A stretch of DNA of 64,000 nucleotides from NCBI RefSeq assembly GCF_051903065.1, contig NZ_CP178438.1; one strand, 5' to 3'. A program made the translations under genes and the position numbers. Of the stretch, positions 31,177 to 37,258 are shown in pieces; position 1 is the first letter of the stretch, and each line of letters begins with the position of its first letter. The stretch comes from Escherichia coli (GTDB lineage Bacteria > Pseudomonadota > Gammaproteobacteria > Enterobacterales > Enterobacteriaceae). The notes below the pieces were generated by a model. It did no database searches, was not told the DNA's origin, and saw nothing but the letters and a program-made list of their open reading frames with translations.

Positions 31177-34079
<2,903 letters not shown>

Positions 34080-34172
34080 ACAACGCCGAAGCTGTTTTGG
34101 CGGATTGAGAGAAGATTTTCAGCCTGATACAGATTAAATCAGAACGCAGAAGCGGTCTGATAAAACAGAATT

Positions 34173-34292
34173 TGCCTGGCGGCCGTAGCGCGGTGGTCCC
34201 ACCTGACCCCATGCCGAACTCAGAAGTGAAACGCCGTAGCGCCGATGGTAGTGTGGGGTCTCCCCATGCGAGAGTAGGGAACTGCCAGGCAT
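34173..34292 (+). rRNA. rrfA: 5S ribosomal RNA
   Basis: TGCCTGGCGGCCGTAGCGCGGTGGTCCCACC...GGGAACTGCCAGGCAT, 120 nt. Confidence 0.98.
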
Positions 34293-34303
34293 CAAATAAA
34301 GCG

Positions 34304-34332
34304 AAAGGCCATCCTGACGGATGGCCTTTTTG
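34304..34332 (+). terminator. rrn operon intrinsic terminator
   Basis: aaaggccatcc-tgac-ggatggccttttt hairpin plus T-run directly after 5S. Confidence 0.85.
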
Positions 34333-34371
34333 CGTTGGTGAAAAAAATGCCGGATGCGACGCTGGTGAACA

Positions 34372-35120
<749 letters not shown>

Positions 35121-35224
35121 ATCAGCATACTTGTCCTTAGCCTTCTGCAGTGACAGCTGGTAGTACAGCGTGCTTCTGGCCAGCCCTGCAGCCTTTAACA
35201 GGTCAGACTGGCAGTGTCCGCACT

Positions 35225-35755
35225 TCAGGTTCTGGATGACTTTCGTTTTTTCTCCAGCTCCTGGCGCTTTTTTTCCAGGAGATGCTCCTGCATGGCTTTC
35301 AGATATGCATTTTCTGCGCGAAGATAACGCAGCTCATTCTTCATCTCTTCCGGCGTCATGTTTGCCTCGTTTTCATGGGTATCATCAGAACGGGTCATGC
35401 TTTTCTCCTTCCTGCGCCTGATAAAGGCCTCATTACCAGATTTGCGGTAGCCTTTTATCCAGTTTTTAACCATGTTGTGGCTGGGAATGTTAAACCGGGC
35501 AGCTACCCGGGGTAGAGACTCAGAATGCCCGAGAGCATAAAGAACCACGCAAAGTTTATCTTCAGGAGAATAGCTACGCTTGTGTCTGCAATCCAGTGCC
35601 TGAGGACCGTGAAGAAGAAAAAGATTAATCCAGTGTGAGAGGCTGGTGTGAGAAAGTTGAAAGAGTTTTGCCGTAGAAATGATGCCTGCATGACCGGCCA
35701 GGTAATGATTTACAGCGGCAAGTTTTACTTCAAATGAATGTTTCATAAACTGCAC
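35225..35755 (-). CDS. IS3-family transposase OrfA (HTH DNA-binding, leucine-zipper-like C-terminus)
   Basis: 176 aa ORF immediately upstream of orfB on same strand; C-terminal EKKRQELEKKRK region contains A-rich putative slippery sequence. Confidence 0.8.
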   Translation of the reverse strand: MQFMKHSFEVKLAAVNHYLAGHAGIISTAKLFQLSHTSLSHWINLFLLHGPQALDCRHKRSYSPEDKLCVVLYALGHSESLPRVAARFNIPSHNMVKNWIKGYRKSGNEAFIRRRKEKSMTRSDDTHENEANMTPEEMKNELRYLRAENAYLKAMQEHLLEKKRQELEKKRKSSRT

Positions 35756-35825
35756 CTTCAGATGTCAGATTATGTCCAACATTTGGGGTGCAGTTCATGG
35801 CGCGTCTTATCCAGCCTACTCTTGC

Positions 35826-36353
35826 TTATCCGTTCTGCTTTTGCATCCACTCCACCACAAAATCAGCCAGCCCCTCAACATCATTAATATCCAGTAATGC
35901 GACATCAAGATTAAGCGGCACATCACTGGCTACAGCAATAACATGCCTGTCTATCACTAATTCTTCCGGTCGATGTCCGGCTCTATCGCGAAACAGCACA
36001 ATCTTTGCGATCTCTTCATGCTTAAACCCTTCGACCAGAATCAAATCCAGCTTTGAGGTATCCATTCGACTTGCGAGAAAATGTAGATCCAGCTCTTCTT
36101 CGTCTGGTGTTTCCGTCATCAAGGCCCATCGTTGCTGGCTGGCAACGATGGTTTGTGCCGCGCCAGCCTTGCGCAGCTCATAGCTATCTTTGCCTGGCTT
36201 ATCAACATCCATATCATGGTGCGTATGCTTAATCAGCCCTGGACGGAGCCCTCTGGCGCATAATGCCGGGATCAGTTTTTTCAAAAGCGTAGTTTTTCCG
36301 GTACCACTCCACGCGGCAAAGGCGAGTAACGGTATCATCGTTTTTCCTGCCAT
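35826..36353 (-). CDS. mobB: molybdopterin-guanine dinucleotide biosynthesis adapter protein MobB
   Basis: 175 aa ORF with Walker A GTGKTT. Confidence 0.9.
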
Positions 36354-36919
36354 CGGGCAAGCTCCTCTGGCGTATTCACGTTAACAAATGCATCTTTATG
36401 ATCGCTGAAATCAACCGCATGCCCGCCAGCCAGACGCATAAATGCCATTACCCGGCGTTCTCCTGCTTGCAGATATTCCAGTAATAAAGGCTCAATAGCG
36501 CGGTTTACCAGAGCAATAGTCGGGTGATCGCGTTCACCGTCATGGACCCACACGACAGGCGCATCTTTGCGCTGATGATTAAGCCGGGCGGCTAAATCAG
36601 GGGGAATGTAAGGCGTATCGCAAGGGCAAAACAAAAACCACTCACCAGCTTCCTGCTGCATTACTGAAAGCATTCCTGCCAGAGGGCCTGGGTAATCCGC
36701 CAGTGAATCTTCAATCACTTTCAGACCGCCTGCCTGATAGATTTCCTGATGACGATTAGCATTAACCACGACGTGAGAGAGCTGCGTCATAAGCGCGTCA
36801 GCGACATGTTGCCACAGCGGTTTGCCATTTAAGTCCAGCAATCCTTTATCTACGCCGCCCATTCGTCTGGCTTTACCGCCTGCCAGCACAACGCCTGTTA
36901 TCGTCGTCATCAGATTCAC
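36335..36919 (-). CDS. mobA: molybdenum cofactor guanylyltransferase MobA
   Basis: 194 aa ORF overlapping mobB start. Confidence 0.9.
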
Positions 36920-36988
36920 CGATATCGCCTCTTTTATTGTGGGATTGACCCTGCTAACGTGTCTGTCTCAAGAGTAAGGAGCATTACT

Positions 36989-37258
36989 ATGAAATGTAAA
37001 CGTCTGAATGAAGTTATTGAACTCCTCCAGCCAGCCTGGCAAAAAGAGCCAGATCTTAACCTGTTGCAATTTTTGCAGAAACTGGCGAAAGAGTCAGGTT
37101 TTGACGGCGAACTGGCGGATTTGACGGATGACATTCTGATCTATCACCTGAAAATGCGTGATTCCGCGAAAGATGCGGTGATCCCGGGTTTGCAGAAAGA
37201 TTATGAAGAAGACTTCAAAACGGCGCTGTTACGCGCTCGCGGCGTAATTAAAGAGTAA
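36989..37258 (+). CDS. yihD: DUF1040 protein YihD
   Basis: ORF track 36959..37258 trimmed to ATG at 36989 (89 aa). Confidence 0.8.

What the first reader, a model, noticed from the sequence alone, without database searches (positions are those of the whole stretch)
35100..35300. OrfB frame of the IS3-family element stays open upstream into orfA, consistent with a programmed -1 frameshift producing an intact OrfAB transposase
Translating the minus strand in the orfB frame upstream of the ORF-track start gives ...NLKCGHCQSDLLKAAGLARSTLYYQLSLQKAKDKYADVKQLIASIF..., with no stop until inside orfA, and A-rich heptamer-like sequences lie at the orfA 3' end (gaaaaaag / gagaaaaaacga). This suggests the element is potentially transposition-competent rather than a decayed relic.
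Basis: partly seen in the sequence, partly recalled or inferred. Interest (0 to 1): 0.25.

Follow-up and report, generated by a model that had tools for sequence, protein, structure and literature searches.

The report
Intact IS1397 insertion sequence, frameshift site
This is an ordinary, apparently intact copy of the known E. coli insertion sequence IS1397, sitting in a REP repeat between the 5S rRNA gene and mobB, and it has the usual A-AAA-AAG signal that fuses its two reading frames into one transposase.

Summary

- **Element.** Window 34366-35797 (minus strand) is a 1432-bp IS3-family element. It has 25-nt TG...CA inverted repeats and a 3-bp TGG target duplication, and it sits inside a REP unit between rrf and mobB. 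It is 97-100% identical to RefSeq copies annotated [quoted passage not shown]. One of these is a 100% identical copy at the same locus.
- **Frameshift site.** orfA (173 codons) contains one in-phase X_XXY_YYZ heptamer, A_AAA_AAG, at 35273-35267. From there the -1 frame runs open for 289 codons, through an intact DD(35)E triad (D295, D355, E391), to the stop at 34400-34398. The fusion product is 449 aa.
- **Possible stimulators.** A GGAG lies 11 nt upstream. A modest 38-nt hairpin (-11.7 kcal/mol) starts 4 nt downstream. Both meet published empirical criteria. Neither is proven.
- **State of this copy.** It differs by 1-2 nt from a variant found at four other REP loci in four strains, so it looks recent rather than decayed.
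- **Minor new point.** In 54 sequence-distinct relatives the heptamer lies in a conserved ENAYLKK motif. IS1397 has lost it there and uses a new one 9 codons downstream.

Frameshifting and transposition were not tested.

The parts
34366..35797 (-). Complete IS1397 element (1432 bp; IS3 family, IS150 group)
   Evidence: Bounded by the inverted repeats (I1). Full length is 97-100% identical to RefSeq copies annotated IS1397. It is the only copy in the window.
35773..35797 (-). Left inverted repeat (IRL), starting 5'-TGAACTGCACCCC
   Evidence: I1: 25-nt arms, 80% complementary. The TG...CA termini are read directly from the sequence.
34366..34390 (-). Right inverted repeat (IRR). Position 6 from the tip is T here (element position 1427), where 9 of the 10 other fetched copies that differ from this one have A
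   Evidence: The ECNB21-M121 copy, at a different locus, shares the T.
34363..34365 (.). Target-site duplication TGG, rrf-proximal copy
   Evidence: The empty site in strain MB53 has a single TGG.
35798..35800 (.). Target-site duplication TGG, mobB-proximal copy
   Evidence: alignment of both window flanks to the empty site.
34346..34365 (.). Left half of the split REP / palindromic unit (AATGCCGGATGCGACGCTGG)
   Evidence: In the empty site the REP reads GCCGGATGCGACGCTGGCGCGTCTTATCCAGCCTAC without interruption.
35798..35819 (.). Right half of the split REP / palindromic unit (TGGCGCGTCTTATCCAGCCTAC)
35225..35746 (-). orfA: 173 codons plus TGA, helix-turn-helix DNA-binding protein
   Evidence: Pfam HTH_28 (E 5e-17) and HTH_Tnp_1. 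The ATG at 35746 is the start PGAP uses.
35267..35273 (-). Slippery heptamer A_AAA_AAG (orfA codons 159-160), the proposed -1 frameshift site
   Evidence: It is the only in-phase X_XXY_YYZ heptamer in orfA. It is present in all 11 other E. coli copies fetched. IS150, ISKpn8 and most distant relatives use the same heptamer.
34398..35267 (-). orfB-frame part of OrfAB: 289 codons plus stop, with HTH_21, rve and rve_2 domains
   Evidence: Pfam rve E 1e-21 over the full profile, HTH_21 E 1e-17.
35285..35288 (-). Internal Shine-Dalgarno-like GGAG, 11 nt upstream of the heptamer (candidate 5' stimulator)
   Evidence: Read from the sequence. [quoted passage not shown]
35226..35263 (-). 38-nt bipartite hairpin CAGG-AG-CUGGA...UCCAG-AA-CCUG, starting at the 4th nt after the heptamer and ending in the orfA stop codon (candidate 3' stimulator)
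   Evidence: dG -11.7 kcal/mol, 0.308 kcal/mol per nt, 0.131 above the local average. It meets the empirical rules of PMC4066793. The shuffle z-score of the 87-nt context is only -1.25.
35246..35251 (-). Second A-run (GAG AAA AAA CGA), which lies in the loop of the hairpin and is not a canonical in-phase heptamer
   Evidence: It is changed to AAAAAG in strain 3150.
35744..35799 (-). 5' hairpin pairing the IRL tip with the orfA ribosome-binding site and ATG
   Evidence: (I7): dG -28.5 kcal/mol, z = -5.9, and none of 200 shuffles folds as well.
34863..34865 (-). Catalytic D295 (WVTDITEF)
   Evidence: The column is conserved in IS150, ISKpn8, a B. thuringiensis element and an ETEC plasmid element.
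34683..34685 (-). Catalytic D355 (LHSDQGW)
34575..34577 (-). Catalytic E391 (DNAVMENFF); 35 residues lie between D355 and E391

Best explanation
The region is the orfA/orfB overlap of an intact copy of the known insertion sequence IS1397 (IS3 family, IS150 group). The copy inserted, probably recently, into the central part of a REP unit between the rrn terminator and mobB.

Proposed mechanism:
- Most ribosomes translate orfA to its TGA and make a 173-aa helix-turn-helix protein.
- A minority slip back one nucleotide while the two Lys-tRNAs decode A_AAA_AAG (35273-35267). They continue in the orfB frame and make a 449-aa OrfAB protein (...LLEKK-APGAGEK...).
- OrfAB joins the DNA-binding N-terminus to the DD(35)E catalytic domain and is the transposase.
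- An upstream GGAG (pairing with 16S rRNA) and a modest hairpin 4 nt downstream probably raise the slip frequency.

Shown here: the element's identity, boundaries, target duplication, open frames, heptamer phase, intact catalytic residues, and near-identity to copies dispersed at other loci.

Inferred by homology with IS150 and IS911 and from annotation: that slippage occurs at this heptamer, that the two flanking elements stimulate it, and that this copy can transpose.
For: **Identity**
- The full 1432 bp is 97-100% identical to copies that RefSeq labels IS1397, present full-length in 1707 of 5426 complete E. coli genomes.
- A 100% identical copy sits at the same srkA-yihD-mobA-mobB / rrf locus. 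It is annotated as a joined CDS with 'programmed frameshift'.

**Anatomy**
- 25-nt inverted repeats.
- TGG duplication and an exact empty site in strain MB53.
- A single in-phase A_AAA_AAG, followed by 289 open codons in the -1 frame.
- Pfam HTH domains in OrfA; HTH_21, rve and rve_2 in the orfB frame.
- NF033516 at 389 bits against a cutoff of 160.
- D295, D355 and E391 with DD(35)E spacing.

**Fusion product**
- 449 aa, matching 120 database proteins at 98-99% identity and 100% coverage.

**Comparison with relatives**
- IS150, ISKpn8, a B. thuringiensis element and an ETEC plasmid element all carry A_AAA_AAG 12-20 codons before the orfA stop, with an open -1 frame.
- So do 54 sequence-distinct relatives from other phyla, some with A_AAA_AAA instead.

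**Literature**
- In the IS3 family the frameshift fusion is the transposase, and the level of frameshifting sets the level of transposition (PMC5009743).
- -1 frameshifting stimulated by a stem-loop is reported as proven for IS clusters including the one cited to the IS150 paper of Vogele et al. 1991 (PMC4066793).
- IS1397 is experimentally shown to insert into REP sequences (PMC1525189).

**Stimulators**
- The GGAG spacing and the 38-nt hairpin meet the PMC4066793 criteria.

**Recency**
- The copy is 1-2 nt from a variant found at four different REP loci in four strains.
- At least 97% of genomes have this site uninterrupted.
Against: - No experiment or expression data were available, and the original IS1397 papers are not held. 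Frameshifting at this exact site rests on homology and annotation.
- The downstream hairpin is weak. At 0.308 kcal/mol per nt it is below the IS3-family mean of 0.452 +/- 0.124 quoted in PMC4066793. The shuffle z-score is -1.25. It starts at the shortest allowed spacing.
- Among E. coli copies the hairpin shows one compatible change (U-A to U-G) and one disruptive change (A-U to U-U, strain 3150). Neither supports or refutes it.
- No relatives of intermediate divergence were found, so covariation could not be tested.
- This copy carries T rather than A at position 6 of the IRR, and a private N173 in OrfAB. The effect of either is unknown.
- No sigma-70-like promoter was found in the IRL by the simple scan.
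Confidence: 0.88

Rival explanations
1. OrfAB is made mainly by transcriptional slippage. RNA polymerase adds one extra A in the A7 run (35274-35268). Standard translation of the A8 mRNA then gives the same ...EKK-APG... fusion without any ribosomal frameshift.
For: A run of seven A's overlaps the heptamer. The product would be identical in sequence, so sequence analysis cannot tell the two routes apart. Transcriptional realignment is a recognised route in some IS families (title and scope of PMC5009743).
Against: From general knowledge, efficient polymerase slippage usually needs runs of about 9 or more A/T. The heptamer is in exactly the phase needed for tandem tRNA slippage. Relatives conserve the phased A_AAA_AAG rather than a longer run. 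The flanking GGAG and hairpin fit a ribosomal mechanism.
Confidence: 0.06
2. The slip occurs mainly at the second A-run (GAG AAA AAA CGA, 35254-35243) rather than at A_AAA_AAG. This is one of the two sequences the first reader listed.
For: The -1 frame is also open from there. A_AAA-type tetramers can support low-level -1 shifting (abstract of PMC4066793).
Against: In the orfA phase it is G_AAA_AAA, so the P-site tRNA cannot re-pair at the first codon position. It is not an X_XXY_YYZ heptamer. It varies in strain 3150, which PGAP still annotates as intact. It lies in the loop of the predicted hairpin, with no structure at a suitable distance downstream.
Confidence: 0.04
3. The copy is inactive despite its open frames, because of its private changes (IRR position 6 T; N173) or lack of expression. 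The frameshift signal would then be a fossil with no current function.
For: 9 of the 10 other fetched copies that differ from this one have A at element position 1427. All ten have G at position 568, giving S173 in OrfAB. No promoter-like site was detected in the IRL. Truly decayed copies do exist elsewhere: APEC O1 has a 1-bp deletion and strain 401656 a 5-bp deletion.
Against: The IRR T variant is also found at a different locus, next to yhjD in ECNB21-M121, so a copy with that end has probably moved. There is only one amino-acid difference from WP_100245061.1, which sits at four loci. All frames, the heptamer and the DDE triad are intact. The insertion is rare in the species, so it is recent.
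Confidence: 0.07
4. OrfA and OrfB are made only as separate proteins, with OrfB starting at GTG 35120. No fusion is produced.
For: The mechanical ORF list gives a 240-aa ORF from GTG 35120.
Against: The orfB frame stays open for 51 codons upstream of that GTG and has no earlier start codon. That upstream stretch aligns with the OrfAB linker of relatives. A phased heptamer lies in the overlap. In the IS3 family the fusion is the transposase (PMC5009743).
Confidence: 0.02

Closest known systems
IS1397 (IS3 family, IS150 group; E. coli; inserts into REP/BIME palindromic units)
   Same: - 97-100% nucleotide identity over all 1432 bp to RefSeq-annotated IS1397 copies.
- Same 449-aa fusion product.
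- Insertion in the centre of a REP unit with a 3-bp duplication. Other copies show 3- or 4-bp duplications, all in REPs.
- REP targeting matches what PMC1525189 reports as experimentally proven.
   Different: Only 1-2 nt differ from the commonest close variant: A568 (N173 in OrfAB) and T1427 in the IRR. The ISfinder reference sequence itself could not be fetched.
IS150 (E. coli K-12 insJ/insK), with the related ISKpn8
   Same: - 173-codon orfA, orfB in the -1 frame, and the same A_AAA_AAG heptamer near the end of orfA.
- A hairpin downstream of the heptamer.
- Similar inverted repeats (TGTACTGCACCC... against TGAACTGCACCCC...).
- DD(35)E triad.
   Different: - Only 42% amino-acid identity in OrfAB.
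- IS150's heptamer lies in the conserved YLKK motif, followed 6 nt later by a 10-bp stem (-18.5 kcal/mol). IS1397 reads YLKA there. It uses a heptamer 9 codons further on (LLEKK), with a weaker bipartite hairpin starting at nt 4 and an upstream GGAG.
- IS150 is not REP-specific (general knowledge).
IS911 and dnaX type -1 frameshift signals (A_AAA_AAG with an upstream Shine-Dalgarno-like element and a downstream structure)
   Same: Same heptamer, and the same three-part layout: an SD-like GGAG upstream at a spacing reported as stimulatory, plus a 3' stem-loop.
   Different: The proteins are unrelated (dnaX) or belong to a different IS3 subgroup (IS911). IS911's 3' element is a three-way junction. 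No AUU-initiated OrfB was looked for here.

Membership tests
IS3 family insertion sequence | Element of about 1.2-1.6 kb bounded by imperfect inverted repeats ending 5'-TG...CA-3' | tested here: met
   1432 bp; 25-nt inverted repeats, 80% complementary; TGAAC...GTTCA termini.
IS3 family insertion sequence | Two partly overlapping ORFs, with orfB in the -1 frame relative to orfA | tested here: met
   107-nt overlap; frame offset verified.
IS3 family insertion sequence | Slippery X_XXY_YYZ (typically A_AAA_AAG) motif in the overlap, in the orfA phase | tested here: met
   A_AAA_AAG at 35273-35267, the only such heptamer in orfA.
IS3 family insertion sequence | DD(35)E catalytic triad in an rve (integrase core) domain | tested here: met
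   D295, D355 and E391. Pfam rve covers profile positions 2-102 of 102, E 1e-21.
IS3 family insertion sequence | Fusion protein passes the curated IS3 transposase model | tested here: met
   NF033516: 389.2 bits against a cutoff of 160, profile positions 1-369 of 369.
IS3 family insertion sequence | 3-4 bp direct target duplication | tested here: met
   TGG on both sides, single in the empty site of strain MB53.
IS3 family insertion sequence | OrfAB is actually produced by -1 ribosomal frameshifting and acts as the transposase | not testable with these tools
   Needs a reporter, immunoblot or mass-spectrometry assay and a transposition assay. Only the annotation ('programmed frameshift') and homology are available.
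IS1397 (the specific element) | Near-identity over the full length to sequences named IS1397 | tested here: met
   97-100% over 1432 bp to RefSeq copies annotated 'IS3-like element IS1397 family transposase'.
IS1397 (the specific element) | Insertion within REP / palindromic units of BIMEs | tested here: met
   The REP is split at 34365/35798. Nine of the ten other copies whose flanks were read also lie in REP-like GCCGGATG.../...TTATCCGGC sequence. The LH50-c copy is not clearly in one. The property is described in PMC1525189.
IS150-type frameshift window | Heptamer located in the conserved orfA motif (E)NAYLKK | tested here: not met
   IS1397 reads ENAYLKA (CTG AAA GCC) there. Its heptamer is 9 codons downstream at LLEKK. 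IS150, ISKpn8, the B. thuringiensis and ETEC elements and 54 sequence-distinct relatives have it at YLKK.
IS150-type frameshift window | Stable stem-loop beginning about 6 nt after the heptamer | tested here: inconclusive
   A 38-nt hairpin (-11.7 kcal/mol) starts at nt 4 and meets the PMC4066793 rules. It is weak (z = -1.25) and has no covariation support.

The most novel reading that the evidence does not exclude
IS1397 has moved its programmed slip site. The ancestral A_AAA_AAG in the ENAYLKK motif, used by IS150 and by 54 sequence-distinct relatives across phyla, was lost. A new A_AAA_AAG arose 9 codons downstream in the Lys/Glu-rich OrfA tail, so 9 linker codons of OrfAB changed reading frame.

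The new site is embedded in three mutually exclusive pairing segments: CAGGAG (35290-35285), CUCCUG (35281-35276) and CCAGGAG (35264-35258). These could act as a switch that exposes or hides the upstream GGAG and the 3' hairpin, tuning frameshift efficiency.

The relocation is well supported by the alignments. The switch is speculation. The probability given is for the whole reading, including the switch.
Probability: 0.15. Interest if true: 0.3.

Novelty: already known. Interest (0 to 1): 0.1.

Why it matters
It matters little beyond annotation. The result says the IS between rrf and mobB is a recently inserted IS1397 that looks functional, not a relic. That is relevant to genome stability and strain typing in this lineage.

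Two small points may interest IS or recoding specialists:
- IS1397 is a natural case where the slip site has moved within the overlap compared with the rest of the IS150 group.
- RefSeq's conceptual fusion protein (…EKKPPGAG…) differs by one residue from the product predicted by tandem slippage on the heptamer (…EKKAPGAG…).

Tried and rejected
- **Original IS1397 papers.** PMC94167, PMC95333 and PMC169884 are not held. Published details of the IS1397 frameshift window and of the OrfAB constructs could not be checked. The secondary papers cite IS1397 only in their reference lists.
- **Protein database search.** The fused protein returned only near-identical IS1397 entries in the 120 listed. This confirmed the product but gave no intermediate relatives.
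- **Species-representative genome scan.** Apart from one E. coli contig at 99%, the nearest relatives are 39-57% identical. The downstream hairpin could therefore not be tested by covariation, and no covariance model was built.
- **Plasmid tblastn.** It gave three hits in the 95-99% band (IS1397 itself where checked). All others were below 60%: IS150, ISKpn8 and Bacillus elements.
- **Rfam.** At gathering thresholds it finds only 23S and 5S rRNA in 33000-37000, and no curated frameshift element.
- **Promoter scan.** No sigma-70-like site in the IRL. The element's own promoter stays unidentified.
- **Decayed relic.** Considered and rejected: frames, heptamer, DDE triad, inverted repeats and length are all intact.
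- **Second copy in the window.** Rejected.
- **First hairpin-enumeration script.** It crashed and was rerun in a simpler form.

Full report
**1. What is at the coordinates**

That frame is open from the stop at 35336-35334 to the stop at 34400-34398.

orfA runs from the ATG at 35746 to the TGA at 35227-35225, 173 codons, and lies one nucleotide ahead of that frame. orfB is therefore in the -1 frame, and the two frames overlap by 107 nt.

A scan of every orfA codon found one X_XXY_YYZ heptamer: A_AAA_AAG at 35273-35267, codons 159-160. After a -1 slip there, 289 codons are open to the orfB stop, giving a 449-aa fusion.

That is G_AAA_AAA, which is not a canonical tandem-slip motif.

AAAAAAG occurs 29 times on both strands of the window. 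My arithmetic from that count puts the chance of one falling in the right phase inside a 107-nt overlap at about 0.01.

**2. What the element is**

- **Boundaries.** Inverted-repeat search gives 25-nt arms at 34366-34390 and 35773-35797. They end TG...CA and delimit 1432 bp.
- **Identity.** A megablast of those 1432 bp against 5426 complete E. coli genomes finds full-length copies in 1707 genomes, at 97-100% identity. They are annotated 'IS3-like element IS1397 family transposase'.
- **Same-locus copy.** The best hit is 100% identical and lies at the same locus (srkA-yihD-mobA-mobB / IS / rrf-23S).
- **Domains.** OrfA has helix-turn-helix domains. The orfB frame has HTH_21, a complete rve domain and rve_2.
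- **Family model.** The fusion scores 389 bits against NCBIfam's IS3 transposase model, whose cutoff is 160.
- **Catalytic residues.** D295, D355 and E391 are present, with 35 residues between the last two. They align with those of IS150, ISKpn8, a B. thuringiensis element and an ETEC plasmid element.
- **Database proteins.** The fused protein matches 120 database proteins of 448-449 aa at 98-99% identity and full coverage. Nearly all are named IS1397 or IS3 family transposase.

**3. Insertion site**

The flanks are the two halves of a REP / palindromic unit. It lies just after the rrn terminator hairpin (34304-34329) and 5S rRNA (34175-34290), and just before the mobB stop at 35826.

I joined the flanks with one TGG removed and searched with that sequence. 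At least 97% of genomes hold the site in one uninterrupted piece. Alignment to strain MB53 shows a perfect empty site, GCCGGATGCGACGCTGGCGCGTCTTATCCAGCCTAC, with a single TGG.

So this is a clean insertion with a 3-bp duplication, and it is rare in the species. Nine of the ten other copies whose flanks I read also sit in REP-like sequence, with 3- or 4-bp duplications. The exception, LH50-c, is not clearly in a REP. This fits what PMC1525189 reports as experimentally proven for IS1397.

**4. Is this copy intact or decayed?**

I compared this copy with ten others fetched from different strains and loci.

- Nine of them, and this one, are 1432 bp or within a small deletion of it, and all keep GGAAAAAAAG.
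- Two are real pseudogenes: APEC O1 has a 1-bp deletion in orfA, and strain 401656 has a 5-bp deletion in orfB.
- The window copy has neither defect.
- It differs by 1-2 nt from a variant encoding WP_100245061.1. That variant lies at four different loci in four strains where the element matches at 2-11 places each.
- The two differences are A rather than G at element position 568 (N173 rather than S173 in the OrfAB linker) and T rather than A at position 1427 (position 6 of the IRR).
- The IRR T is shared by the ECNB21-M121 copy at another locus.
- In one strain (BH100N) the element matches at 33 places. In another it reaches the 40-piece reporting limit.

The copy therefore belongs to a recently proliferating lineage. 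Competence of this particular copy remains an inference.

**5. How the frameshift probably works**

In the IS3 family the -1 fusion is the transposase, and its level sets the level of transposition (PMC5009743). PMC4066793 reports -1 frameshifting stimulated by a stem-loop as proven for IS clusters including the one it cites to the IS150 paper of Vogele et al. 1991.

Applying the empirical criteria of PMC4066793:
- **Upstream element.** A GGAG at 35288-35285 lies 11 nt before the heptamer, inside the 6-17 nt range.
- **Downstream element.** A 38-nt hairpin (35263-35226; CAGG/CCUG plus CUGGA/UCCAG) starts at the 4th nt after the motif. Its dG is -11.7 kcal/mol, or 0.308 kcal/mol per nt, which is 0.131 above the local average. 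The paper's thresholds are 7.6 kcal/mol and 0.09. Its 3' arm includes the orfA stop codon.

The hairpin is weak, however. It is below the IS3-family mean of 0.452 kcal/mol per nt quoted in the paper. The 87-nt context has a shuffle z-score of only -1.25. Population variation gives one compatible and one disruptive change. I rate the heptamer as well supported and the two stimulators as plausible but unproven.

Transcriptional slippage on the A7 run would give the same protein and cannot be excluded as a minor route.

**6. Comparison with relatives: a displaced slip site**

IS150 (fetched from K-12), ISKpn8, a B. thuringiensis element and an ETEC plasmid element are 42-46% identical to this OrfAB. 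In all four, A_AAA_AAG encodes the KK of a conserved ...ENAYLKK motif.

A scan of species-representative genomes returned 80 loci. Apart from one E. coli contig, the relatives were 39-57% identical. In 54 sequence-distinct relatives the heptamer (A_AAA_AAG, sometimes A_AAA_AAA) sits in that same motif.

IS1397 reads ENAYLKA (CTG AAA GCC) at that point. It carries its heptamer 9 codons downstream, in LLEKK. That position aligns with the Lys/Glu-rich OrfA tail of the relatives (…LNALVQEKEK…KKRK).

The distance from YLK to the conserved EK.KVI..L(R/K) block of OrfAB is kept. The IS1397 -1 frame is still open across the old position. So the slip site has moved within the overlap, and about 9 linker codons are now read in frame 0 instead of frame -1.

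This is the only point where IS1397 departs from the IS150-type window. It is minor, and I could not check whether it has been described before.

**7. Verdict**

The feature is a textbook IS3-family recoding site in a named element that RefSeq already annotates as such. Novelty: already known. Interest is low.

What remains untested is biochemical: frameshift efficiency, the stimulators, and the activity of this exact copy.

Noticed in passing
window 35267-35300 (minus strand); compare L002 (IS150), L004-L006 and L017-L096: The IS1397 slip site is displaced. Relatives have A_AAA_AAG at the conserved ENAYLKK motif. IS1397 has YLKA there and a new A_AAA_AAG 9 codons downstream, at LLEKK.
   Followed up: yes
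window 35264-35273; proteins P0001, P0005, P0011, P0037: RefSeq/PGAP fusion proteins read ...LLEKKPPGAGEK..., which corresponds to re-reading the C just after the heptamer. Tandem slippage on A_AAA_AAG predicts ...LLEKKAPGAGEK.... The DNA is identical, so the deposited proteins probably carry one wrong residue (Pro161 for Ala161).
   Followed up: partly
window 35744-35799 (minus strand): A strong hairpin (-28.5 kcal/mol, z = -5.9) pairs the tip of the IRL with the orfA Shine-Dalgarno sequence and ATG. It would form only in transcripts entering from outside, for example read-through from mobAB, which is co-oriented and ends 28 bp upstream. It probably blocks their translation.
   Followed up: partly
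window 35258-35290 (minus strand): Three mutually exclusive pairing segments surround the heptamer: CAGGAG (35290-35285, containing the SD-like GGAG), CUCCUG (35281-35276) and CCAGGAG (35264-35258). The middle one can pair with either neighbour; the version that encloses the heptamer has dG -12.4. In the BH100N, APEC O1 and 401656 copies it reads CUUCUG.
   Followed up: no
L097:601-665 (E. coli K-12, between yhhI and yhhJ): A 65-bp solo remnant of the IS1397 right end (element positions 1368-1432, 95% identical), abutting half a REP. It was the only match in all 22 sampled records that lack a full copy, including K-12 and B strains; about 1790 genomes lack one.
   Followed up: partly
window 34371 (element position 1427, IRR position 6): This copy has T where 9 of the 10 other fetched copies that differ from it have A. 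A makes the IRR match the IRL better (TGAACTG in both). The ECNB21-M121 copy at another locus also has T.
   Followed up: partly
L008 (APEC O1) and L009 (strain 401656): Decayed IS1397 copies for contrast: a 1-bp deletion at element position 197 in orfA, and a 5-bp deletion at 615-619 in orfB. PGAP marks both as frameshifted pseudogenes. The APEC O1 copy also lies next to an rrf gene.
   Followed up: yes
L049, L082, L084 (Pseudomonas relatives): These three relatives have overlapping orfA and orfB frames but no X_XXY_YYZ heptamer in the overlap. They may use a tetramer motif or may be inactive.
   Followed up: no
as a whole: Outside E. coli/Shigella, the closest relatives of the IS1397 transposase in one-genome-per-species sampling are 51-57% identical (best aligned segment). 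They come mostly from Bacillaceae and Pseudomonas, not from other Enterobacterales. IS1397 therefore looks like an isolated lineage in enterobacteria.
   Followed up: no
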